A stretch of 54,904 nt of DNA from IMG/VR virus record IMGVR_UViG_3300036846_000162, positions 1-54,904 of that record. One strand, given 5' to 3'. The notes beneath the pieces are model-generated. The model was given only the letters and a program-made list of their open reading frames with translations. It ran no database searches and was not told the origin of the DNA. How positions within the stretch are numbered: the first letter of the stretch is position 1; each line of letters starts with the position of its first letter. Source of the DNA: a virus. Its lineage: Duplodnaviria; Caudoviricetes. Shown in pieces: positions 1-54,656 of this stretch. The position numbers and the translations under genes were made by a program.

Positions 1-3000
1 GCTAGACAAACCTTTGACCAAACAAAGGAAGAGTTAGCAGGTCTTGTTAATCCTGATGGTACTAGGAAATATACTGACCAGCAGGTAGATCAGTTCTCAA
101 GAGCAGGAGCAGAGAAGGATTTCCATTACAATATGGCTATGCTACCTCTAGATATATTATCCTATTCAGCTATGACCTTTAACCCTATCTCTGGAGAGGC
201 AGAAGGTATGATGGAGAGAGGACTTGAGAAGCTAGCAGGTCTTTATGGTGAGTCTAAGCTAGGTAAGGCAGCAGGATGGTTAACTACTAAGTCTCTTGCA
301 CTGCAATCAGAAGGTATAGAAGAAGGTTTTCAGGACTTTGCACAGAAGGAAGGACAGCACTATGCAGAAGTATTAGGAGGTATGGATGATGGTAAGAGCT
401 TTAGTCAAAGACTAGGAGCAGAGGTATCAGGTTCAGACTTCTGGAATAACTATTTAGGAGGTGTAATAGGAGAACCTCTTGTAGGTGGTATAATGGAGGC
501 AGTCAATAGGACAGAGAGAGGACTAAAACAGAAAGCTATTAACTCAGTATATCAAAAGTTTACTTCCAATGTAGGCAAGTTAGACAATGATACAGCCGTT
601 AAGATTAAACAGCTACAGGCAGCAGGTAATGATATACAGGCAGCTAATATGAGGATGAACTTTAATGTTAACAAGACATTAAAGGCTCTTATGATGGACT
701 CTGTTTCTAATAGGGATGAAGCATACAATGCTCACATGGCTAACAGACAGGGATTACTTGCTGAGTTAGAAAATGGTAAGACTGATGGTCTAATAGACCT
801 AGGACATCCTGATTCTACTGAAGCTAGTAGAGACATTATTAAGAGTGAGCTTAAGCAGCAGATAGCAGACAGTGCTACAATAAAGAACATCTATGATGAT
901 GTTAAGAGTAAGTACAATAGGAACTTTGTAATGAAAGTAACATCACAGAAGTTCTACCTTCAGAGGATGCTTGAGGAGATGCCTGATATAGATAAGTCTA
1001 TTAGGGATGCCTACTCTAATGATGCCAATTACAATAGTCTATCTGCTCATGGCAAACAGTTAGCTGATACACAATATCAACTTGCAGCTCTCAAGAACTA
1101 CAAGAATAACCTATCAGAAAATATAAAGTACACTACAGATGTAGATGAGAAGCAGCATAGGGAGGATATGTTGGATAACATTAACAAGAGGATAGATGAT
1201 CTAGTTAATACACATGAACAGATACAGGAAGATGAGAACTATAATGATAAGGATAAGGAAAGTGACAATGCTGCCTTAACAGAGATGCATATAAACCCTA
1301 ATAAGGATCTATTCTGGGGGTTATCTAACAAGGTAGAAGGAGATGGAGAAATACAACTGGGAAGGAAAGACTTAGCTCTATGGGGTAAGGATGAGTATGT
1401 AGAAAGGGCTAGAAACAAAGTATTTGATAATGCTCTAGTAGAGTCTGAGATAACTGATGCTATGCAGGAGATTAAATCTTCTAAGATTAGTATGTTTGAG
1501 AAGATAGGACAGAAGGGCAAGGTAGCAGTAAGAGCTGTCACCAGTAAGATTACTAGTGGACAGAGAGCAAGAGCAGAGGCAAGAGCAGAACAGATAAAGG
1601 TAGAGCAAGCTGAGACAGCTAAGAAGAATCAGATAGTTACAGATACAGCAGATGAACTCAAAGATAAAGAGAATAATCCAGTAGAAGAAAGTGAGTATAC
1701 TGCTAACCTAGTTCAGTTAGCTGACATGTTAGGCTCAGTAGATATGGCTCATGTAGATACAGCATCTGCACCACCACCATTATCAGACGTACTGAATGCT
1801 CCAGGAGCAGTAATGACATTCTCTTTATCACCCTCTGTAAAGGATGCAGATGGAAAGGAAGCAACTCAAGAACAGAAGAATAGTATAAGAGATCAGGTAG
1901 CAGGACTAATAAATAGGATGGGTAATCCTACAGGCAACTTTGAAGACCTAGCAAGAGATGTATTAAAGAAGGATGGAGAGGCTACTACTAAACATGTTTG
2001 GAACTTACTTGCCTATGGTTGGGAGGCTAATGGTAAAGCACCTGCTGACTACAACGCTATATACAACTCTATCTTTAGTAACCATGTAGCAGAACTAGTA
2101 AGGATACAAAAGGAATTGACAGAACAAGGCTCTAAAGCACAGGAATTAGTAGATCAAAATCAATGGGAGGAATCGGGGATAGTAAATAGTTTTAATCCAC
2201 CAGGAGAAGGAGGTACTACAGGACAGTCACATACATATAATACAGGAGTAACTAGTAGATCAGATCCTAAAGGACAGTTTTCTACTTTCATGGTTCATAC
2301 TAAGGTAACAGAGACACAGGATGGTAAGGAAGTACTAGTAGATAGACACTTTACTGGAGCTGAGGGTATGAATAACAAGTGGATTAATAGTGCAGTATTA
2401 CTAGGGGATAAGTCCAGACCAGGAATGAAAACTATTATTAAAGTACCAAAGGATTACAACTCAGTTCCAGTAGCGGTATTTGGTACTGATGGAAACTATG
2501 TTACCTTTATACCATTTGGACAGTATATAAGTGAGAGATTTCCTGTCGATAGAAATACATGGACTGCAGAACAAGAGCAGGAGTATAGAGATAAGCTACC
2601 TATGATACACTATCCTGTAGGATTTGATAATGGTGGTAAGGGTATAATGCAGGTACATGATACAGGATGGTACCATAAAGTTAGATTTGATGAGGGTAGT
2701 CCAGAGGAGATGCAGAAAGCTATAGAAAATGTAAGAGCCATAAGAGAAGAAGTTATAGCTAGTTGGGATAATGATAAAGGTAAGAATGAAGTACCAGCTA
2801 CAGTGACTAATGTTATACAGACTACATTTGATCCTCTTAAGATAGTTGTAGGAGGTGGGGTACAAGGTATGACTTTAATGGAAGCTAATCCTGAGACTAC
2901 TCTAGGACTAGTAATGGATAGTTTAGACTCTAAGGACATAATCATAAAACCAGGAGAGAAGTTTCATAGTAGTGATAGGATACTTCTAAACTCTAAGCCA

Positions 3001-6000
3001 CAGGATGCTATAGGTAGGATAGTAGATATAAGAAAGTTTGGGATGAAGGATGGAGTACCTACGTATGTAGCATTCAAGGTTACTAGACCTAAGCTAGGTA
3101 AGGAGGCAAAGACTACAGTACAACAGCTATTACAGTACTGGGCTACAAGAAAGAGTGGTAACAAAGATGTAAGAGATAAGAATAATAAGATAAAACAAGC
3201 AGTAGAAGGATTATCAGGCTTCGATTTGAGTGTATTAAACACAGGATTTGACTTTAATTCTTACCTATCACATTTCGTCTATGTAGATACTTTAAGTAAG
3301 AAGGTTAAAGGGGCAGTAAGAGAGACACAAGATGTAGCCAAAGCTATACACAAAATAGCTACAGATACATTACCAGTGGGAACTCCTTACATGCAGTCAG
3401 AAAAGTATAGGATAATAATAGGACAGGCAGGTATAGGAGAGACAGGTACAGAGTTATGGTCTAAGGAGAATGATGCTGCTCAAGAGGCAGAGATGATGAA
3501 GAACCTTGACAAGCTAAAGAATACTCCAGTAACTATACCTGAAAAGAGAAGAAGCCCAGATGGAACAGAAGGAGTAGTTCAAACCAAGTACAACTCTATC
3601 TTTGATTGGTATGAACAGAACCTTAACATGAAGAATATAGCTAAGAATAGGGCTATAGTACATATCAATGAGGAAGGTAAGGCAAGTCAGGCACCAGGAG
3701 GAGCCACATATACAGACTACCTTAAGAATAATCTTAGGACTAATGTTAAGTCACTAAACATAGGTACAGCAGAGAAACCTGAGTGGGTCACTAATGCACA
3801 GCCTACTGTTACATACGAGACAGACTCAAGATTGAAGAAGATGGCTGATAGAAGTAAGTCTGATGCTCAGGTAAAAAAGGATATAGTAGATTCAGAAGAA
3901 AAGAAACCAACAAGAGGAACTAAGTTGGATGATGCCTTAGCAACAGCTAGAACTAAAGCACTAAACGAACAACTATCTGATCTGGAAGCTAGATATTATG
4001 ACTTACCAGAGGGATTATCAGAAAATGAAAAGGCAGACATAAATGATAGGATTGAAAATGGTGATAAAGAAGCTATTAAAAAGTATACTAAAAGGATACT
4101 TAATAGTGAGGACTTAAAAAAAGCTCAGGAAGCCTATGATAAAGGCAACTTTGTAATGGATGAAGATGGTGAAACATCACCTAAAGACTTGGAAGCAGCA
4201 GCACTTAGGAATGCATCTATGGTAACTGTAGGTAATACTGATATGGAGTATGACTCACCAGAAGATTTATTCAAGGAGTATAGGAATGGTGATGTAGAGC
4301 CAGACTTTATGGAAGCAGCAGAGGAAAGATTGAAGGAGTATGGACTATTACATTTAGTAAACTATAATCCTAATCAGCTAGAACTCTTTGGAGAAGAAGA
4401 AGGTCAAGCTAAGCCTACAACAGAGACAGAAGTAAAGAAAGAAGAAGAAGAGGAAAGTCCAGAGGATTTCCTCAAAAGGATGAATGACTTCACTAAGAAT
4501 GATGGAGGTATAAATGGAGCATTACTATCACCTACAGTAATGACTGATGCTCAGGCAAAGGTAGTAGAAAATAGTCTTACTAAGATAGCAGGACTAAGCC
4601 CTCAAGAACAGTTTGAAACTCTTGATTTCCTATCCAATGAGATAATACCTACAATAGAAGCTAATGGAGGTGACATAAGTAAAGCTGAGGTAGATAAGAT
4701 AGTGCAGGATAGGTTCAATGAGTTGTTAGGAGAAAGAGCAAAGGTAGCAGAGGCAGAAATAAAGAAGGCAATAGCCTATGCTGAAAAGTATCCTGATAAA
4801 GCTCAAGCTTTTAATCAGATGATAGCTAGGTTACAGAATACTATTACTAAGATTAGTGATGTAGGTGCTTCTATGGATAAGCTGATGGAGTTAGCTTATA
4901 GAGAAGCAAAGAAGAGTAGTAATATAAAGATGACTAAGGAGAGATTACAGGATAGTATAGAAGATGATGAGGATAGAGATGAGTCAGGAACAGATGATGG
5001 TGAAAGTGAAGAAAAAAGGGAAAGAGCTTTTGGTAGTGAGATACTTTCAGAGAATCCAGAAAACAAGGTTACAAAGAAGATGAGAAGATTCTTTGCAAGG
5101 GTTATTGATACAGAGGCTGATGGTACTAAGAAGCAGGGTGTATTTAATCTTCCTGTCTATGTTAACAAGGATGTCATAGTTAGTTTCCTTCAGAAGATGC
5201 TAGCTGATACACCACCATCATTTGATGCTAAGATGGGTAAGTTGGCTACTCTAGTAGAGACAGTACCATGGATACAAGAGATTATAGATAGGCTTAAGAA
5301 TACTAGTGAGGCTAACAAGAAGGTATTCACAGTATGTATGGACAATAGTACCACGCATATGAGCTTTGCCCTAGTAGGTTTCAATAAGAAGACAAAGAGA
5401 TGGTACTCAAAAGTAAAGAGTACTATATCAGCAGGAGCAGTAGAGAGTTTACGAGATGGATGGAGACAAAATTTTATGTCTGACTCCAGCCTAGTACAGA
5501 ATGATGCAGAGGGAGACCCAAGGATAGTAACAGATAAGGCTAATCAGCTAATACAGAAGTATAGGGATTGGAAGGGATACGATTTACCTACCATGAACGC
5601 TAGCTATGAGGACTTCTGGAAGAAGGGTATTGAAACACTCAAGAAACCTAATGAGAGTCTCAACATAGTACCTAAAGGAGCTATGCTAGACGAGTTAAAG
5701 TCTAAGCTAAAGGAAGGTGAGAAGGGTAAGGTAAGTATCAAGGCTGGTAGCTATATCATTAAGGATATGGGAAAGGGTATGTACAATATAAGAAGAGAGT
5801 CAGAGATGATAGGAGATACCAAAGGAGAGACTATGACTAGGATGGATGAGTTCCTTAGAGCTTTCGGTATCACAGTCAAGCCACAGACATTAGCTACTTT
5901 GTATGACAATGGACTATACCATAACACTAGGAGAATAAGCCCAGGTGGACTGTTCTATTCAGGAGGTGCTGATAAGGCAGGTAAAACTAATGGTCTATTT

Positions 6001-45744: not shown

Positions 45745-45832
45745 ATATGCCTCACTGACCCTCGTAAAACAGAATACCTGTATAGACATACAGGTATTTG
45801 GAATTGACTATTTCAATATAAACAGAAAGACA

Positions 45833-46129
45833 TCATTGCTTGTTGTTGTCCATGATAAGTTCTCTAGCCATTACCCATGGGAAGAATGCTCTAGTACAAT
45901 GCTCCACTGTATCACAACATGCCTCATGTTCGTAATGTCTTACTCCTTCACTGTCCTCTGGTACCCTGATATTCTTATTGGCTATCTTAATGATGTATGT
46001 TCTAATACTATTTAACAAAGCTCTCTCTGCTACTAGTTTAGTATACATTTCACCTGTAGTTATGATCTCTATTTCTGAGACCACTCTATGCTCTGCTCCT
46101 ACTGTCTTTTCTATTAGTATATAAGGCAT
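45833..46129 (-). CDS. Hypothetical protein
   Basis: 98-aa - strand ORF; a TACCTTTA -7-like element lies just upstream. Confidence 0.5.
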   Translation of the reverse strand: MPYILIEKTVGAEHRVVSEIEIITTGEMYTKLVAERALLNSIRTYIIKIANKNIRVPEDSEGVRHYEHEACCDTVEHCTRAFFPWVMARELIMDNNKQ

Positions 46130-46379
46130 GGTATTATTGTAAAGGTAAATAAATTTTTAAATAAAAACATGAAAGTGAGGATATTTCTATCCTCTCTCTT
46201 TCACTTGCCTTCCATCTATGTTCGTTGTGCCATGTAAGACGAGGCTACTTAACATAATGTAAATTATTCTTTCTTTCCTCGCCTTGAAATCCCAAAGTAG
46301 GGGATAGCCATAGTAACCCTCAATAGGTGTAGGCTATCCCTCTTTACTTTGAGTAGGTGTATGACAACACTAAGTTTAG

Positions 46380-46658
46380 TTAGAACGGTAGTTCATCACC
46401 AGTCCAGGTTGTAGTACCTGGAGTTTTAATAGGAGTCTCATCAGAATGATGTACAGGAGTCTCTACAAAGTCCTCTGGCATTTCAGTAAAGCCTACTTGT
46501 GGTAGGAATGGCTCTGTGTAGTCTATCCATTCAAGCATAGCTTTAGCACAGGCTTCCAGGTACAGTTGTTTGACTTCATCTTTAGTCCTATAGCTAGTAC
46601 CAGTTTCTAATGCTGCGAAGAAATGCTCTTTAATCTTGTTAAATAATGATTGGTTCAT
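46380..46658 (-). CDS. Small protein with SSB-like acidic C-terminal tail (GDELPF)
   Basis: 92-aa ORF downstream of motif copy 4. Confidence 0.6.
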   Translation of the reverse strand: MNQSLFNKIKEHFFAALETGTSYRTKDEVKQLYLEACAKAMLEWIDYTEPFLPQVGFTEMPEDFVETPVHHSDETPIKTPGTTTWTGDELPF

Positions 46659-46803
46659 AGTATATTGTTTTAGTATGGTTTATAAAGTGGGCATGAACTC
46701 AAGATAAAGAGATACGTTCCACTTCAAAGCGTACCTATATTTCTTTTGATTTTCTAACGAGAGGCTTTAAGCCTATTACCATGCATGATATGTTGCACCA
46801 TGA

Positions 46804-46821
46804 TTAGGGGGGGTTGATAGG
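46804..46821 (-). promoter_or_regulatory. Conserved 18-bp motif, copy 4
   Basis: + strand TTAGGGGGGGTTGATAGG. Confidence 0.7.
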
Positions 46822-46944
46822 AACCGCTAGTGATGGCTTTACGGTTTATTTAAACCGAGGGTTGTTTGTAGTAGATGTACATTGAAGGCTAAAATATACA
46901 TACAACATAAAGTTAGAACGTTTAAAAATATTTTTTGTTAAAGA

Positions 46945-46996
46945 TTTGGAAAAAGCTATTTCCTGAACTATCTTGCAATAGAAGTTCTTTGAAATA
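46945..46996 (+). promoter_or_regulatory. Bacteroidota-like sigma promoter followed by a boxA-like element
   Basis: TTTG-N20-TATCTTGC (imperfect TAnnTTTG), then GAAGTTCTTTGAAATA. Confidence 0.5.
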
Positions 46997-47727
46997 GACT
47001 AAACGTAGATATGGAGGTTCTAATATCCCTTTACATGAATATGTAGAGATGAACATATTAAAACCATAAAGATCAGTAATTACCAGTATATACTAGTAAA
47101 GACAGATGAACTCAAAAGAAATATATATCCGCTTTGATAGAACTAAACTATATCTCTTAGCTATTTTAGACATAAAGCACGACTCCTGCGCCCATCTTTA
47201 GCCCGAAAGGGGGTTTCTATGGATTGCGAGAGGAGAGAAAGCTGAATAAGTTTGCAACTGCTACCTAATACGGTAAGCTAAAGCAGTACTAATAACCTTC
47301 ATCGGTTGAGAGCCACTACCTAAGACTAGGACCTGGACTTATAGTCATACTTAGAGATGGTAGGTGAAGAAGCTGGCAGACAAATAGGCTGGAAAGCTTC
47401 ATTATAATAACCACCTTATCTGAAGGTAATAAGATAGGGTTAGGGTAGGGGAAACAAGGACACTGGATGAGAGGCTGCAAGGCAGCTTCTTAAGAAACCT
47501 TGATTTCCTTGTATCTCTTGTATAATCTCAATATGTATGCGGGTTCAGCGGGTTCTTTGCCTCAAATCCTCGCAAATAGCTTCTAATTGAAATACAGATA
47601 GTCAAATTCAGTGTTTTACGGCTTACCCTTCTCATTTTGGGTAATAGGTGAACTAAATAGGAGTAATAAGTTTTCTAACTGACCACTCTTTTAGCAATTA
47701 CAAGGACTATATCCATAGTCCTTTCTT
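46980..47727 (+). ncRNA. Candidate large structured non-coding RNA (family unassigned)
   Basis: No ORF >=60 aa; nested helices, GNRA-type loops and G-U pairs favouring + sense; promoter upstream and terminator-like hairpin AAGGACTAT/ATAGTCCTT at 47702-47723. Confidence 0.55.
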
Positions 47728-47808
47728 ATAAACTCATTTGTGGTATTCCTTTGTTCTCCTTCTTTTATTTGTCTTTTTTTGCTAGTAGTAGGGTACTAAA
47801 ACAGTACC

Positions 47809-48300
47809 CTATTTTATTGCATTTAATTGTGCATCACTTCCATGCAGTTCTAATGCTTTATTATTGTATGCTATTGCAGCTTCTACTTCTGAATTAAACA
47901 TACCTAGATAATGATACTTTTTATTAAAGTGTATTTGAGCTATCCATTTATTACCTGACTTATACACTCCTCTATAAATAGAGCTAGTTCCATCTCTTTT
48001 AGCTCTATTTATTTTATTCTGTGATGAAGTAGCTATTCTAAGATTACTCTTTTGATTGTTTAAGCCGTCTCTATCTATATGATCTACTTCTTCTGTAGAG
48101 TCAATAACTCTCATGATCTGTCTATGCATTCTAATCCTTGAAGGATAACCTATTTTTACTTCCTCTTCTGTAGCTACTCTTATTGCATATACATTATCAT
48201 TGAATCTTGTTAAGTACCATATGGACTGCTCTAGTTCTATATAATCCTCATCGTCTACTATCACTATTCCTCTTCTATTAGCTAATTCTATCTCTTTCAT
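47809..48300 (-). CDS. HNH endonuclease with AP2 domain (paralog of 26440-26982)
   Basis: VDDEDY, MHRQI, VDHIDRDGLNNQKSNLR, SIYRGVY..KWIAQI..LGMFNSEVEAAIAYN. Confidence 0.9.
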   Translation of the reverse strand: MKEIELANRRGIVIVDDEDYIELEQSIWYLTRFNDNVYAIRVATEEEVKIGYPSRIRMHRQIMRVIDSTEEVDHIDRDGLNNQKSNLRIATSSQNKINRAKRDGTSSIYRGVYKSGNKWIAQIHFNKKYHYLGMFNSEVEAAIAYNNKALELHGSDAQLNAIK

Positions 48301-48318
48301 AATTTTTACTTTAGTAAG

Positions 48319-48346
48319 AAAGGCACCCTTTAACAGGTGCCTTTTT
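48319..48346. terminator. Hairpin terminator, possibly bidirectional
   Basis: AAAGGCACC/GGTGCCTTT stem with flanking A/T runs. Confidence 0.6.
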
Positions 48347-48370
48347 GCTATGGATATATGACTGACAGAA

Positions 48371-48541
48371 CTACTTGTTCTTGCTGAAGGCTGCTAATAC
48401 TAATCCTCCTACTATCAATGCTAATCCTCCTACTACTATGAAAGCTATTGTCTTAGCCGCTTTCTCTGCTACTTCTGTGTTCCCTACTACTAATGATACT
48501 ATTACTACTACCACTAATACGAACATTGTCAATCTAATCAT
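48371..48541 (-). CDS. Small two-TM membrane protein (56 aa, not in ORF track)
   Basis: MIRLTMFVLVVVVIVSLVVGNTEVAEKAAKTIAFIVVGGLALIVGGLVLAAFSKNK. Confidence 0.6.
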   Translation of the reverse strand: MIRLTMFVLVVVVIVSLVVGNTEVAEKAAKTIAFIVVGGLALIVGGLVLAAFSKNK

Positions 48542-48557
48542 TACTGCTTATTTTTGG

Positions 48558-49241
48558 TTATAAATGAACTTGTGTCTTGAACTCCGGTCTTATTCGCATA
48601 TCAGGTGTAACCCAGTCTCTTAAACCTATCCTACCATCCACCTTTACTAATACACCACTCTTTTTTCCTTCCTCTGATGATTTACAGTTGGATGCCCAAC
48701 AGTTATTAATGATTCCCCATCTGATATAACCTGGTCGCCACTCTCTTCCTAACTCTTTAAACTTAGCCTCAACATCATAGGTATCTAGTACCTTTTCAAA
48801 TAGGTCTTCTGGCTTAATGAATTTCTTCTCGATATCCAATATCTCTGCTGCATGTTCTGTCCACTGTACTCTACCCTCAGCTTTAGGATTACCTCCATGA
48901 GTTAATTTCTTCTTCTCTCTCGGCTTCATATCATTATGTGACTCCGCTCTTAATATTCTCATACCCTTTTCCATAGGTATGCCATGCTTCACTTTGCTAT
49001 ACACTTCTAACATTAACTTATCTGCTGCTACTCTATCTACTAGCATATCGTGGTCTTTCTTAAGAGTTAAATATGCCTCATAATAGTCCTTTAATGTAGG
49101 AGCTAATTCTGAGATCTTTTTCATGTTATCGTTAATCCTTGTTTGAGCCTCTTCAATCAGATAGGCTGATTGAGAGTCTGTAAGAGTCTTTATTTTTGAC
49201 TCTTGTGGGGGTAATAATAACCCATTTGTTTTCTGTTGCAT
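48558..49241 (-). CDS. Hypothetical protein (coiled coil plus possible winged helix)
   Basis: 227-aa ORF. Confidence 0.6.
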   Translation of the reverse strand: MQQKTNGLLLPPQESKIKTLTDSQSAYLIEEAQTRINDNMKKISELAPTLKDYYEAYLTLKKDHDMLVDRVAADKLMLEVYSKVKHGIPMEKGMRILRAESHNDMKPREKKKLTHGGNPKAEGRVQWTEHAAEILDIEKKFIKPEDLFEKVLDTYDVEAKFKELGREWRPGYIRWGIINNCWASNCKSSEEGKKSGVLVKVDGRIGLRDWVTPDMRIRPEFKTQVHL

Positions 49242-50198: not shown

Positions 50199-50230
50199 AT
50201 ATCTGTTTATATTGGTTACAAAATAAATTT

Positions 50231-50857
50231 CAATGTATATAAGCGCATCTCCACTGCTTTGCTGTAAGGGTGTCTTACATCAGTCAGAGTATATACATCG
50301 GGAAATACTCGCCACTACCCTTAGCAGGAGGCGACAGTATCTATCCCATTAACATAGGGTGCTAACTGCCTGTTTATATAGTAACCCTAACCATATTTAT
50401 CAGGACTTGTTTGTGCTCTTTATTCCTTAGCATTAGTTGTAGCCACCTATTCAGTATGTTGACCTGACTAGTTAAGACTTCTTTGCAACAGCTACAACTT
50501 TATGCTTTGGAAACTATCTACCATGCCAGTACATGTTACAGAGGTTCTTTTAATCACTCTCAGAGTGCCCTCATATAGACAATAGTAAAAGGATGGGGTG
50601 CATTGCTCATAACCTAACCCCGTTATGTACTACCCCACCCTAATAAGTATAACCAGTAGATTGTTATATCATGTTTTCTTCCATACTCATGAGGTACAGA
50701 TTGTTTCTTGTTTTCTTCCACTGGTTAATGCGGTTAGTAACTGGTCTTGTGGTTAGCTAATGATGTTGCTATAGCCAAACGTGTGCATACGATAGTTCTC
50801 TCCTCAACATCTGGGTTTTCCTACCATGCGTTCATCTCCAGAGTTTCCAGTTACTAA
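50231..50857 (-). ncRNA. Candidate structured RNA / tandem hairpin array
   Basis: ORF-free tract tiled by about 8 consecutive long imperfect stem-loops; + strand A-C mismatches convert to G-U pairs on the - strand. Confidence 0.5.
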
Positions 50858-53529: not shown

Positions 53530-53793
53530 TTAATCAACCTTTAAATACTTTTTATAAGGTCTGTTAGTGGACTTGGAAACTGTCCATACATATAACTTAC
53601 CTTTTAAGGTCTTGTAAACAGGTAATGATTTACCGTTGATATCATTGAACTTGTAGGTCGTAGTTGAATCCCAAGTTGGTCTGTTTTCAACGATAGTATT
53701 ACCAACTAACTTATATTTGTTGCTTGTTGGTGTTTGTGCTGATGATATAATGGCTATTGTTAATGCCAATAATAATAAGATAGTTAATTTCAT
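53530..53793 (-). CDS. Small secreted protein
   Basis: Signal peptide MKLTILLLLALTIAIISSAQ. Confidence 0.65.
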   Translation of the reverse strand: MKLTILLLLALTIAIISSAQTPTSNKYKLVGNTIVENRPTWDSTTTYKFNDINGKSLPVYKTLKGKLYVWTVSKSTNRPYKKYLKVD

Positions 53794-53833
53794 GTTGTTT
53801 GTCGCTTTTATATATTGTGATAATAAAGATAGT

Positions 53834-53869
53834 AAAAAACACTGGTAGTAATCCCTTACTACCAGTGTT
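53834..53869 (-). terminator. Intrinsic terminator
   Basis: Perfect 14-bp stem AACACTGGTAGTAA/TTACTACCAGTGTT with A-run. Confidence 0.75.
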
Positions 53870-53912
53870 GAAGATCGTGCTGTAAACCAAGACTGTAAAC
53901 GTCTATAGTCCT

Positions 53913-54155
53913 CTACAAAGAGAACTTCACGTCCAGTGGTTTCACATTCACTATACAGCCGTCAGTGAACTTATCTTCTTCGTACATATACCTAACAGGT
54001 AATGCTGGATTGAGATCCTGCTGTACTTTAGAGGTTCCTTTAGCATGAATAGCAAATGTAGTACCCTTTGCAGGGTTACTTACAACGTCAATCTTATCTA
54101 TGCCTAACTCAGCTTTAAACTGGTCAAGCGTGATAAATTTCATCTGTTGTGTCAT
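53913..54155 (-). CDS. Small hypothetical protein (paralog of 54411-54656)
   Basis: Start reassigned to MTQQMKF by alignment with its paralog. Confidence 0.7.
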   Translation of the reverse strand: MTQQMKFITLDQFKAELGIDKIDVVSNPAKGTTFAIHAKGTSKVQQDLNPALPVRYMYEEDKFTDGCIVNVKPLDVKFSL

Positions 54156-54227
54156 ACATCTGATATTTATAAACCCATGATTCGCTACTCTGTATCTATA
54201 CACAGTAACTAGCAATATCGCTCTAAA

Positions 54228-54245
54228 TTAGGGGGGGTTGAAAGG
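54228..54245 (-). promoter_or_regulatory. Conserved 18-bp motif, copy 8
   Basis: + strand TTAGGGGGGGTTGAAAGG. Confidence 0.7.
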
Positions 54246-54371
54246 TGATGCCTTTTTGTATATGATATATCATAAAATAAGGGGTTGTTGATAGTATTTT
54301 AATGTACTCTTAAGGTGGGTTGCTAGGTAGGCAATGTATTAAGGGGATGTTGATGGGCAGGCTTAAAAGGT

Positions 54372-54404
54372 AAAAAAAAGAGTACTGACCGAAATCAGTA
54401 CTCT
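54372..54404 (-). terminator. Intrinsic terminator with UUCG-type loop
   Basis: AGAGTACTGA/TCAGTACTCT stem, loop TTTCGG on the - strand, A8 run. Confidence 0.8.
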
Positions 54405-54410
54405 AGCCGC

Positions 54411-54656
54411 TTACAAGCTGAACTTAACTTGCAGAGGCTTTACATTAACGAAGCACCCCTTCTCGAAGCCCTCGGTCTCGCTATACATGAAGCGTACCGG
54501 CTCGCTAACAGTTAGGGTAGCCTGAGCTTTATAGGTCTTGCCACCGCATATGGCAAATAACTTGGTAGGGTCTTTGAATGTGAAGTCAATAGCTTGCCCA
54601 ACAGTGTTGGTTACAGACTTGAATGCATCTACCGTAAGAAATGTGAACTGTGACAT
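54411..54656 (-). CDS. Small hypothetical protein
   Basis: 81 aa; ends GCFVNVKPLQVKFSL like its paralog. Confidence 0.7.
   Translation of the reverse strand: MSQFTFLTVDAFKSVTNTVGQAIDFTFKDPTKLFAICGGKTYKAQATLTVSEPVRFMYSETEGFEKGCFVNVKPLQVKFSL

What the first reader, a model, noticed from the sequence alone, without database searches (positions are those of the whole stretch)
46945..47727. Candidate novel ~700-nt structured ncRNA transcribed against the flow of the - strand region
Seen: a host-type promoter, then boxA-like GTTCTTTGAAATA (boxA antitermination is typical of untranslated stable RNAs), an ORF-poor body and a terminator-like hairpin at 47702-47723. A ~350-nt multibranch domain is closed by long-range pairs TTGCGAG(47224)/CTCGCAA(47569), GAGGAGAGAA/TTCTTTGCCTC and GCTGAA(47241)/TTCAGC(47544). 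It encloses ACTGCT/AGCAGT, nested CTTCA/TGAAG-CTACC/GGTAG-GACTA/TAGTC, GAAGCT/AGCTTC, CCTTATCT/AGATAGGG, and GGAAACAAGG/CCTTGATTTCC around AGAGGCTGC/GCAGCTTCT. A CCC-GAAA-GGG tetraloop lies at 47202. G-U pairs favour the + strand. I cannot match it to tRNA, tmRNA, RNase P or intron cores. Alternatives: a new large phage ncRNA class, or an R-loop primer RNA for an origin (G-rich GGGTTAGGGTAGGGG at 47437-47451).
Basis: partly seen in the sequence, partly recalled or inferred. Interest (0 to 1): 0.8.

Follow-up and report, generated by a model that had tools for sequence, protein, structure and literature searches.

The report
Orphan candidate structured RNA, soil phage
A 1.1-kb gene-free stretch of an uncultured soil phage contains a roughly 400-base segment that folds unusually well on one strand and matches no known RNA, but no relatives or expression data exist, so it remains an unproven candidate.

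Summary
The sequence features are real. 46659-47808 has no credible ORF under code 11 or three recoded stops. The claimed helices sit at the stated coordinates. 47190-47590 folds better than shuffles on the + strand only (z -3.07 against -0.62). Nothing matches Rfam, tRNA, tmRNA or any protein family.

The "host promoter" matches 8 of 12 bases, the boxA resemblance is not testable, and the 5' and 3' flanks are not significantly folded. The left 170 nt belong to a minus-strand promoter-like motif and the leader of the next gene.

New support for a + strand unit:
- the strongest purine-skew reversal in the 37-kb minus-strand gene block;
- rank 2-3 of 270 for fold stability and 3 of 546 for strand asymmetry;
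- a bidirectional terminator just to the right, once a mobile HNH cassette (absent in a sister strain) is discounted.

No homologue was found in about 2.4 Mb of related phage DNA or 151 Bacteroidota genomes, and both flanking genes are ORFans, so covariation cannot be tested. An origin or regulatory reading stays open: the lowest-GC segment of the contig lies here, flanked by a 29-nt inverted repeat.

Relatives, including phi14:2 and Fpv1, carry unannotated tmRNA genes nearby.

Verdict: plausible orphan ncRNA, probability about 0.4.

The parts
46659..47808 (.). ORF-free gap between minus-strand genes g92 (46380-46658) and the HNH gene (47809-48300). In the HNH-less strain the gap effectively runs on to the terminator at 48312-48350.
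   Evidence: no ORF over 54 aa; no frame opened by recoded stops; six frames read with X at stops: 0 PHROG and 0 Pfam families at E<=1
46803..46822 (-). Copy of a repeated motif (minus strand CCTATCAACCCCCCCTAAT) found upstream of minus-strand genes. It is promoter-like and serves g92, so the left ~170 nt of the gap belong to the minus-strand unit.
   Evidence: 9 copies at up to 2 mismatches, all in one orientation, 0.67 expected; each lies 30-150 nt upstream of a minus-strand start codon
46724..46752 (.). Left arm of a 29-nt inverted repeat (86% complementary).
   Evidence: 2 matches to the pattern in the window, 0 in shuffles
47109..47137 (.). Right arm of the 29-nt inverted repeat. The two arms enclose the minus-strand promoter-like motif and the AT-rich segment.
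46901..47100 (.). Lowest-GC 200-nt stretch of the whole 54.9-kb window (26.5% against a mean of 37.3%).
46946..46974 (+). It is a weak match (8 of 12).
   Evidence: read; not listed
47106..47201 (+). 31-aa ATG ORF just before the folded domain. Nothing supports it as a gene.
47190..47600 (+). Core of the candidate RNA: a multibranched domain closed by a long imperfect helix and holding 5-6 hairpins.
   Evidence: (z -3.07, 0 of 100 shuffles) against (z -0.62; rank 10 of 1092; ranks 2-3 of 270; strand asymmetry rank 3 of 546; largest + strand purine excess in the minus-gene block)
47224..47246 (+). 5' strand of the closing helix.
47544..47575 (+). 3' strand of the closing helix.
47702..47723 (+). 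9-bp hairpin (-10.2 kcal/mol) with a poor U-tract. A possible 3' end or weak terminator.
   Evidence: not listed
47783..48311 (-). Mobile HNH-AP2 endonuclease cassette (ORF 47809-48300), absent from a near-identical strain. It carries a hairpin at 47787-47813 that has a T-run only on the + strand side.
   Evidence: a contig of run X2 joins 47782 to 48312, skipping 529 nt; phrog_99 at 1.4e-33, PF13392
48312..48350 (.). Bidirectional intrinsic terminator after minus-strand gene 48371-48541. It has an A-run, a GC stem and a T-run, so it reads as a terminator on both strands. It lies about 30 nt right of 47782 in the HNH-less strain.
   Evidence: sequence; -18.4 kcal/mol on +, -16.3 on -; z about -4 on both

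Best explanation
The gap holds an independent non-coding RNA gene on the + strand, convergent with the minus-strand early-type genes.

Its functional core is a ~400-nt multibranched domain (47190-47600). Transcription would start somewhere in the AT-rich 46.86-47.19 kb segment; the promoter is not identified. It would end at the 47702-23 hairpin or, in the ancestral HNH-less arrangement, at the bidirectional terminator 48312-48350.

By analogy with the abundant, stable intergenic RNAs of the crAss-like phage phi14:2, I infer that it accumulates during infection and acts in trans as a protein-binding scaffold or decoy.

Shown: absence of coding capacity, strand-specific fold stability, the compositional strand switch, and the terminator layout. 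Inferred: that it is transcribed at all, its ends, and its mode of action.
For: - No ORF under four codes, and no protein-family relic in six frames.
- The + strand fold has z -3.07 (0 of 100 shuffles) against -0.62 on the - strand.
- The full 783 nt give z -5.73 (+) against -2.86 (-), with only 20 shuffles each.
- Genome-wide ranks are 2 and 3 of 270 window-strands. Composition-corrected strand asymmetry ranks 3 of 546.
- The + strand purine excess at 47201-47500 is +0.19 to +0.23. The block of minus-strand genes averages -0.19 +/- 0.10, so this is the largest reversal in 37 kb.
- The region lies between a terminator that also works on the + strand (48312-48350) and the next minus-strand promoter-like motif (46803-22). 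It is therefore not obviously part of a minus-strand unit.
- Precedent: relatives carry ncRNA genes (tmRNA) in the same neighbourhood. In phi14:2, long intergenic regions are reported as highly transcribed RNAs of unknown function (bioRxiv 10.1101/2020.03.07.982082, passages read).
Against: - No + strand promoter stands out. The one the scan lists (47030-59) is one of 3 sites where shuffles give 7.3. None of the 9 copies of the phage motif faces rightward.
- The fold signal is strong but not unique. Other intergenic-rich parts of the window (53.7-54.3 kb and 45.7-46.5 kb, minus strand) score as well or better.
- Only about 400 of the proposed 700 nt are significantly folded.
- No homologue was found anywhere searched, so there is no covariation evidence.
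- The three soil runs that hold the locus are identical across it, so they give no variants either.
- In phi14:2 the intergenic RNAs run in the same direction as the early genes. Here the predicted RNA runs the opposite way.
Confidence: 0.4

Rival explanations
1. This is a DNA-level element: a replication origin or a regulatory region. An AT-rich unwinding segment (46.9-47.1 kb) is flanked by a 29-nt inverted repeat that would bind an initiator or regulator, next to an outward-facing promoter. Any + strand transcript would then be a primer or activator RNA rather than a trans-acting RNA.
For: - 46901-47100 is the lowest-GC 200 nt of the whole window (26.5%).
- The 29-nt inverted repeat 46724-52 / 47109-37 is far beyond chance. 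Further palindromes lie at 47072-47107 and 47112-47137.
- Helicase, primase and DNA polymerase A genes lie 2-15 kb away on the same contig.
- The + strand RNA would be purine- and G-rich (the run at 47437-51), which by general knowledge favours stable RNA-DNA hybrids.
- The 783-nt window also folds better than shuffles on the minus strand (z -2.86), which suggests strand-symmetric (DNA-level) palindromy in the left part.
Against: - There are no iterons or other direct-repeat arrays.
- The left segment 46860-47195 is not significantly self-complementary on either strand (z -0.64 and -1.46).
- The strand-specific fold of 47190-47590 is not explained by a pure DNA element.
- No origin has been mapped in this phage group as far as I know (recalled, not searched).
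Confidence: 0.2
2. This is non-functional spacer: a scar of rearrangement or a decayed, inverted piece of former coding sequence in a hypervariable region. Its fold stability would be a top-1% chance value.
For: - Both flanking genes are ORFans among 5.8 billion clustered proteins, and a mobile HNH cassette has just inserted here, so the locus is in rapid flux.
- Purine excess on the + strand is what an inverted fragment of a former gene would show.
- With 1092 window-strands tested, about 10 are expected at this rank by definition.
- No homologue, promoter or expression evidence exists.
Against: - Phage genomes rarely keep ~0.9 kb of useless DNA; this is general knowledge, not tested here. 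In the window only one other gap of at least 450 nt is free of any 45-aa ORF.
- No protein-family relic appears in any frame, though most genes here are ORFans, so this check is weak.
- The strand-specific fold, the skew reversal and the bidirectional terminator coincide on the same ~1 kb.
Confidence: 0.25
3. This is a highly divergent, rearranged or decayed tmRNA. Relatives carry a tmRNA gene in this neighbourhood, and the domain is tmRNA-sized with a long closing helix.
For: - tmRNA (RF00023) is present in 8 of the 16 related helicase loci scanned with Rfam, in 28 of 71 g229 loci by a group-specific profile, in Fpv1 (58.2 bits) and in phi14:2 (46.0 bits).
- These tmRNAs score close to Rfam's threshold, and ARAGORN misses several of them.
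- The first ~20 nt of the domain (47210-47232) loosely resemble the 5' ends of the relatives' tmRNAs (by eye).
Against: - RF00023 and the other tmRNA models give no hit even at E<=10.
- ARAGORN finds nothing down to 85% of its thresholds. At 80% it calls a permuted gene (47436-48007) that runs into the HNH cassette, which is absent from the sister strain.
- A profile of 8 relatives' tmRNAs finds nothing at 47190-47600 on the + strand (best hit in the window has E 4.1 and lies elsewhere).
- No T-arm-like motif exists in the gap.
- The orientation is opposite to that in all relatives.
Confidence: 0.03
4. The gap encodes one or more very small proteins (for example the 31-aa ORF 47106-47201 on +, or the 54/44/35-aa ORFs on -), or it is simply a long 3' untranslated tail of the minus-strand operon.
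For: - Neighbouring genes are small (52, 56 and 73 aa), so tiny genes are normal here.
- The sigma-70-like site at 47030-59 sits 47 nt upstream of the 31-aa ORF.
Against: - The candidate ORFs have no matches and no shared features with real genes of the window.
- The minus-strand ORFs lie downstream of a good terminator, and none follows a copy of the promoter-like motif.
- Together they would cover well under half of the gap.
Confidence: 0.1

Closest known systems
Long intergenic RNAs of the crAss-like Cellulophaga phage phi14:2 (g004-g005 and g005-g006 junctions; Drobysheva et al., bioRxiv 10.1101/2020.03.07.982082, passages read)
   Same: Both are long ORF-free stretches (0.7-1 kb) among small early-type genes near the replication module of a ~100-kb phage of a Bacteroidota-type host. 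In phi14:2 such stretches are transcribed above most genes, early and stably, with function unknown.
   Different: - No sequence or model similarity.
- The phi14:2 RNAs run with the early genes, whereas this one is predicted on the opposite strand.
- One of the two phi14:2 regions contains a near-threshold tmRNA match, which this locus does not.
- The other (2905-3589) is not significantly folded (z -0.32).
- Expression here is unknown.
Phage-encoded tmRNA (Rfam RF00023) of the related phages
   Same: Similar size (350-435 nt), a long closing helix around several hairpins, and a place in the same genomic neighbourhood upstream of the g229-helicase-PolA block.
   Different: No tRNA-like domain, no T-arm, no model or profile match, and opposite orientation.
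Large ornate bacterial and phage ncRNAs in Rfam (GOLLD, ROOL, OLE, HEARO, raiA)
   Same: Several hundred nucleotides, multibranched, phage-borne in the cases of GOLLD and ROOL (recalled), with no known protein product.
   Different: None of the 4227 Rfam models matches, even at E<=10. Those families are defined by covariation across many members, and this candidate has no second member.
Primer RNA / R-loop origins (ColE1 RNA II, T4 and T7 transcription-primed origins; recalled)
   Same: An AT-rich segment next to a promoter-bearing region, and a structured, G- and purine-rich transcript that could form a stable hybrid.
   Different: No mapped origin, no identified promoter, and the AT-rich segment lies upstream rather than downstream of the folded domain. 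Nothing here tests hybrid formation.

Membership tests
tmRNA (RF00023 and the permuted forms) | Covariance-model score at or near the family threshold | tested here: not met
   No tmRNA hit at gathering or at E<=10 in 46600-47900. The relatives score 46-66 bits.
tmRNA (RF00023 and the permuted forms) | tRNA-like domain: acceptor stem, T-arm and a 3' CCA-type end | tested here: not met
   ARAGORN finds none at default or down to 85% thresholds. The 80% call is spurious. The T-arm motif search gives 5 matches in the window against 12.7 expected, none in the gap.
tmRNA (RF00023 and the permuted forms) | Sequence similarity to the tmRNAs of related phages | tested here: not met
   nhmmer profile of 8 relatives' tmRNAs: best hit in the window has E 4.1 and lies elsewhere, with nothing on the + strand at 47190-47600. 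The same profile finds 28 of 71 related loci at E<=1e-11.
Known large structured RNAs (GOLLD, ROOL, OLE, HEARO, raiA, RNase P, group I and II introns, 6S, SRP) | Match to the curated Rfam covariance model | tested here: not met
   0 of 4227 families at gathering over the whole window. There are four unrelated hits of 10-18 bits at E 0.9-6.7 in the region.
Group I or II intron | Interrupts a host gene whose exons flank it | tested here: not met
   The flanks are complete, separate ORFs with their own promoter-like motif and terminator. The adjacent HNH gene is a free-standing cassette that is absent from a strain which keeps the RNA region.
phi14:2-type intergenic long RNA | Long ORF-free interval among early-type genes | tested here: met
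phi14:2-type intergenic long RNA | Abundant, early, stable transcript | not testable with these tools
   No run on record as RNA holds the locus.
phi14:2-type intergenic long RNA | Sequence or structure homology to the phi14:2 regions | tested here: not met
   blastn and nhmmer find nothing. Model R1 with filters off reaches at most 5.8 bits on the phi14:2 locus.
Replication origin | AT-rich unwinding segment | tested here: met
   46901-47100 is the lowest-GC 200 nt of the window.
Replication origin | Arrays of initiator-binding repeats (iterons) | tested here: not met
   Only short two-copy direct repeats. Tandem Repeats Finder reports two trivial rows. One 29-nt inverted repeat is present.
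Replication origin | Initiation of DNA synthesis at the site | not testable with these tools
   Needs an isolate or a cloned fragment.
boxA-type antiterminated stable RNA operon | boxA element bound by NusB/NusE just downstream of the promoter | tested here: inconclusive
   A 13-nt resemblance lies at 46984-96, behind an 8-of-12 promoter that the scan does not list. No second example in the window and no relatives are available to test conservation.

The most novel reading that the evidence does not exclude
The 47190-47600 domain is the founding member of a new class of large structured phage RNA. It would be made from the strand opposite to the early genes. It would occupy, in this lineage, the ncRNA-rich neighbourhood where related ~90-100-kb phages of Bacteroidota carry a tmRNA. 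It would act in trans on a host or phage factor during takeover. A bolder variant is that the 29-nt inverted repeat is an invertible switch: it would flip the enclosed promoter-like motif between the leftward gene g92 and this rightward RNA.
Probability: 0.2. Interest if true: 0.65.

Novelty: new variant of a known kind. Interest (0 to 1): 0.4.

Why it matters
If the RNA is real, it adds an unrelated example to the very short list of large structured RNAs encoded by phages. It would also give a second lineage, after phi14:2, in which long intergenic RNAs sit among early genes of crAss-type or Fipvunavirus-type phages, whose takeover biology is largely unknown.

The side observations may be of more immediate use. 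tmRNA genes appear to be common and unannotated in this phage group. One of the two unexplained abundant RNAs of phi14:2 coincides with a near-threshold tmRNA match.

If the RNA is not real, the locus is still a clean example of a free-standing HNH cassette caught as a presence/absence polymorphism next to a terminator.

Tried and rejected
- **Alternative genetic codes** (TAG=Q, TGA=W, TAA=Q) open no gene.
- **Six-frame translations** with X at stops give 0 PHROG and 0 Pfam families at E<=1.
- **tmRNA hypothesis** rejected.
- **Similarity searches for the region** all came back empty or at chance level:
  - INPHARED phages, blastn: no match.
  - 80 IMG/VR helicase loci, blastn and nhmmer: nothing significant.
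  - Five 92-100%-complete genomes of relatives, BLAST: best E 0.02 over 17-24 nt.
  - 71 g229 loci, nhmmer: none at E<=1.
  - Regions upstream of 21 relatives' tmRNAs: none.
  - phi14:2 intergenic regions: none.
- **Single-sequence covariance model R1** (47296-47520) found only itself:
  - 92 sources, 1.49 Mb; the next best hit was 11.6 bits at E 0.71.
  - 71 loci, 0.95 Mb: best E 0.45.
  - Fpv1 and phi14:2 loci with filters off: best 10.1 bits, E 0.033, inside a polymerase gene.
  - 0 of 151 sampled Bacteroidota genomes. That tool itself warns that an empty answer shows little.
- **Searches for closer relatives failed:**
  - Single-protein scans of IMG/VR with g227, g92 and the helicase found none.
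  - The closest helicase (70% identity, on a 103-kb contig) is known only as a protein.
- **Sequencing runs:** no RNA holder listed.
- **Contigs of three soil DNA runs** are identical to the window over the parts of the gap they cover, so they give no variants.
- **GAAA-tetraloop/receptor idea** (UAUGG at 47219 and CCUAAG at 47319): the flanks cannot form the required helix, judged by eye, so I dropped it.
- **Bacteroidota-type promoter:** one exact TAnnTTTG (consensus recalled) with TTG 20 nt upstream lies at 47247-54, inside the domain. Such octamers occur 36-37 times per strand in the window, so it carries no weight.
- **Inversion of the repeat-flanked segment:** no contig shows the other orientation. 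The loose ends at 46793-46831 are cross-matches to other copies of the promoter-like motif.
Full report
**Setting**

The window is a complete IMG/VR virus record of 54,904 bp, estimated 57% complete, and is held by three soil-metagenome DNA runs.

- It has two giant + strand genes (to 17.6 kb; the first matches the 4401-position virion-protein family phrog_16227).
- It then has a 37-kb block of minus-strand genes that includes RIIA, primase, a DnaB-like helicase, DNA polymerase A and a Dda-like helicase.
- The Dda-like helicase has hundreds of relatives on 90-105-kb contigs, the closest at 70% identity.
- The nearest cultured relatives are Flavobacterium psychrophilum phages of the genus Fipvunavirus at 37%.
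- Most start codons lack a Shine-Dalgarno sequence. Together with these relatives, that suggests a Bacteroidota host; this is an inference.

Yes, in its descriptive part.

- 46659-47808 is free of credible ORFs, also when TAG, TGA or TAA is read as sense.
- Six-frame translations with X at stops hit no PHROG or Pfam family at E<=1.
- The fold of 47190-47590 is -123.6 kcal/mol, z -3.07, with 0 of 100 dinucleotide shuffles as good. The complementary strand gives z -0.62.
- The flanks alone are not significant: 46860-47195 gives z -0.64 and -1.46, and 47576-47782 gives z -1.72. The structured unit is therefore about 400 nt, not 700.

**How unusual is it within this genome?**

- I folded every 400-nt window (step 100) on both strands and regressed the energy on base composition. 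47201-47600(+) ranks 10th of 1092.
- With 783-nt windows, 47345(+) and 46945(+) rank 2nd and 3rd of 270.
- Other intergenic-rich stretches (53.7-54.3 kb and 45.7-46.5 kb, minus strand) score as well. The value is high but not singular.
- The composition-corrected difference between strands ranks 3rd of 546.
- Independently of folding, the + strand is purine-rich at 47201-47500 (+0.19 to +0.23), while the minus-gene block averages -0.19 +/- 0.10. This is the largest reversal in the block.

**Known families**

- Rfam gives 0 of 4227 families at gathering over the window, and four unrelated chance-level hits at E<=10 in the region.
- ARAGORN finds nothing.

- The promoter TTGGAA-17-TATCTT (46946-74) matches 8 of 12 positions. 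It is not among the three sites the scan lists, and shuffles give 7.3 +/- 2.4 sites.
- The boxA-like 13-mer cannot be evaluated.
- The 47702-23 hairpin is stable (-10.2 kcal/mol) but has a poor U-tract.

**What surrounds the domain**

1. A motif, CCTATCAACCCCCCCTAAT on the minus strand, occurs 9 times (0.67 expected). All copies share one orientation, and each lies 30-150 nt upstream of a minus-strand start codon. One copy is at 46803-22, so the left ~170 nt of the gap are the promoter-like region and leader of g92.
2. A contig of run X2 joins 47782 directly to 48312. The HNH-AP2 endonuclease gene is therefore a 529-nt cassette, present in one strain and absent in another.
3. Without the cassette, the gap abuts a hairpin at 48312-48350 with an A-run on one side and a T-run on the other. 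It reads as a terminator in both directions (-18.4 and -16.3 kcal/mol).
4. The ~0.9 kb from 46860 to 47782 thus lie between a terminator that ends the upstream minus-strand unit and the next minus-strand promoter-like motif. This layout, with the skew reversal and the strand-specific fold, is what a convergent + strand gene would produce. None of it shows transcription.
5. The cassette's own hairpin (47787-47813) has a T-run only on the + strand side. That would fit a need to stop rightward transcription, but it is a weak argument.

**DNA-level features**

- 46901-47100 is the lowest-GC 200 nt of the entire window (26.5% against 37.3%).
- It is enclosed, together with the promoter-like motif, by a 29-nt inverted repeat at 46724-52 / 47109-37. 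The repeat is 86% complementary, and the pattern has 2 matches against 0 in shuffles.
- There are no iterons.
- This keeps an origin or regulatory reading alive. It also allows the speculative idea of an invertible promoter, for which the contigs give no evidence.

**Search for relatives of the RNA**

Nothing was found.

- No blastn match in 50,697 phage records.
- No significant blastn or nhmmer match in 80 IMG/VR loci that carry the related helicase.
- No match in five 92-100%-complete genomes of relatives.
- No match in 71 loci carrying the neighbouring gene g229, nor in the regions upstream of 21 relatives' tmRNAs.
- Covariance model R1, built from 47296-47520 alone, finds only itself in 1.49 Mb. 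It finds nothing better than E 0.45 in 0.95 Mb. Its best hit in the Fpv1 and phi14:2 loci with filters off is 10.1 bits inside a coding region. It finds nothing in 151 sampled Bacteroidota genomes.
- The two flanking genes, g92 and g227, have no relative among 5.8 billion clustered proteins. The whole neighbourhood is therefore lineage-specific, and the lack of RNA homologues is neither for nor against function.
- The three soil runs are identical to the window over the parts of the gap they cover.

**The tmRNA lead**

Looking for ORF-free gaps in relatives led to an unexpected result.

- Rfam finds full-length tmRNA genes in 8 of the 16 related helicase loci I scanned: L012-L016, L018, L019 and L020. 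L021 was not scanned.
- ARAGORN sees only 3 of them.
- A profile of these tmRNAs finds one in 28 of 71 g229 loci, usually directly upstream of g229 and on its strand.
- Fpv1 has one (58.2 bits) inside a 2.3-kb stretch with no annotated feature.
- phi14:2 has a match just below threshold (46.0 bits against 47; E 9e-16) at 4031-4502, inside the g005-g006 interval.
[quoted passage not shown] - One of those RNAs is therefore probably a phage tmRNA.
- In the listings of two literature searches (18 papers holding 'tmRNA' and 'crAss-like', 10 listed; 9 papers holding 'Crassvirales' and 'tmRNA'), no title or abstract start reports this. I read passages of only the one paper.

**Is the candidate itself a tmRNA?**

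I tested this because of its size, its long closing helix and a loose 5' resemblance. The answer is no.

- No model hit even at E<=10.
- No ARAGORN call until thresholds are cut to 80%. The permuted gene then proposed runs into the dispensable HNH cassette.
- No T-arm motif in the gap, and no match to the group-specific profile.
- The orientation is opposite to that in the relatives.

**Conclusion**

- The best-supported reading is an orphan + strand non-coding RNA gene whose core is 47190-47600 (probability about 0.4).
- The main rivals are a DNA-level origin or regulatory element (0.2) and non-functional spacer or rearrangement scar (0.25).
- Small proteins or a UTR (0.1) and a decayed tmRNA (0.03) are minor.
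- The mechanism I commit to is a stable trans-acting scaffold or decoy RNA of the phi14:2 type. This is inference by analogy only.
It is still a legitimate candidate worth an RNA-seq look.

Noticed in passing
L012:7901-8280, L013:4247-4625, L014:8581-8999, L015:2339-2773, L016:8135-8522, L018:7885-8238, L019:1238-1657, L020:5828-6247; L327:3274-3688 (Flavobacterium phage Fpv1); 28 of 71 loci L256-L326: tmRNA genes are common in this group of ~90-100-kb phages. They usually lie directly upstream of the g229-helicase-PolA block, on the same strand, and have unusually long tags ending in VAA or MAA. They score near Rfam's threshold (52-66 bits), and ARAGORN misses most of them. The Fpv1 record shows no feature there. 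The window itself has none in its 57% of the genome.
   Followed up: partly
L255:4031-4502 (+), Cellulophaga phage phi14:2 NC_021806: A full-length tmRNA match just below Rfam's threshold (46.0 bits against 47, E 9e-16) lies in the g005-g006 intergenic region. This is one of the two regions reported as abundant long non-coding RNAs of unknown function. The other region (2905-3589) is not significantly folded (z -0.32).
   Followed up: partly
window 25938, 39507, 45732, 46809, 49526, 51782, 53458, 54233, 54315 (motif starts, + strand coordinates): The motif GGGGGGGTTGATAGG (minus strand CCTATCAACCCCCCCTAAT) is repeated 9 times against 0.67 expected. All copies share one orientation, and each lies 30-150 nt upstream of a minus-strand start codon, often just after a hairpin. 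It is probably a phage-specific promoter or another cis-signal of early-type genes.
   Followed up: partly
window 47783-48311: The HNH-AP2 homing-endonuclease cassette is a presence/absence polymorphism. A contig of soil run X2 joins 47782 to 48312, with 5 ambiguous letters at the joint. The insertion sits just downstream of the terminator of gene 48371-48541.
   Followed up: yes
window 46724-46752 and 47109-47137: A 29-nt inverted repeat (86% complementary) encloses the promoter-like motif at 46803-22 and the lowest-GC segment of the contig. It could be an operator pair, an origin element or an invertible switch. No contig shows the other orientation.
   Followed up: partly
window 50199-50825: This is the only other gap of at least 450 nt free of any 45-aa ORF. 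It folds modestly on the minus strand (z -1.56) and not on the + strand (z -0.29), and has no Rfam hit.
   Followed up: partly
window 53700-54300 (-) and 45745-46500 (-): These minus-strand stretches fold as well as or better than the candidate relative to composition: rank 1 of 1092 at 400 nt and ranks 1 and 4 of 270 at 783 nt. They are rich in promoter-like motifs and small genes. 54201-54650 also shows a + strand purine excess.
   Followed up: no
L023:682-750 (+): A RAGATH-1 hammerhead ribozyme (63.9 bits against a threshold of 56.3) lies in a related phage contig.
   Followed up: no
window 46281: All three soil runs read A where the window has G. This is the only substitution seen across 45800-48900.
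   Followed up: no
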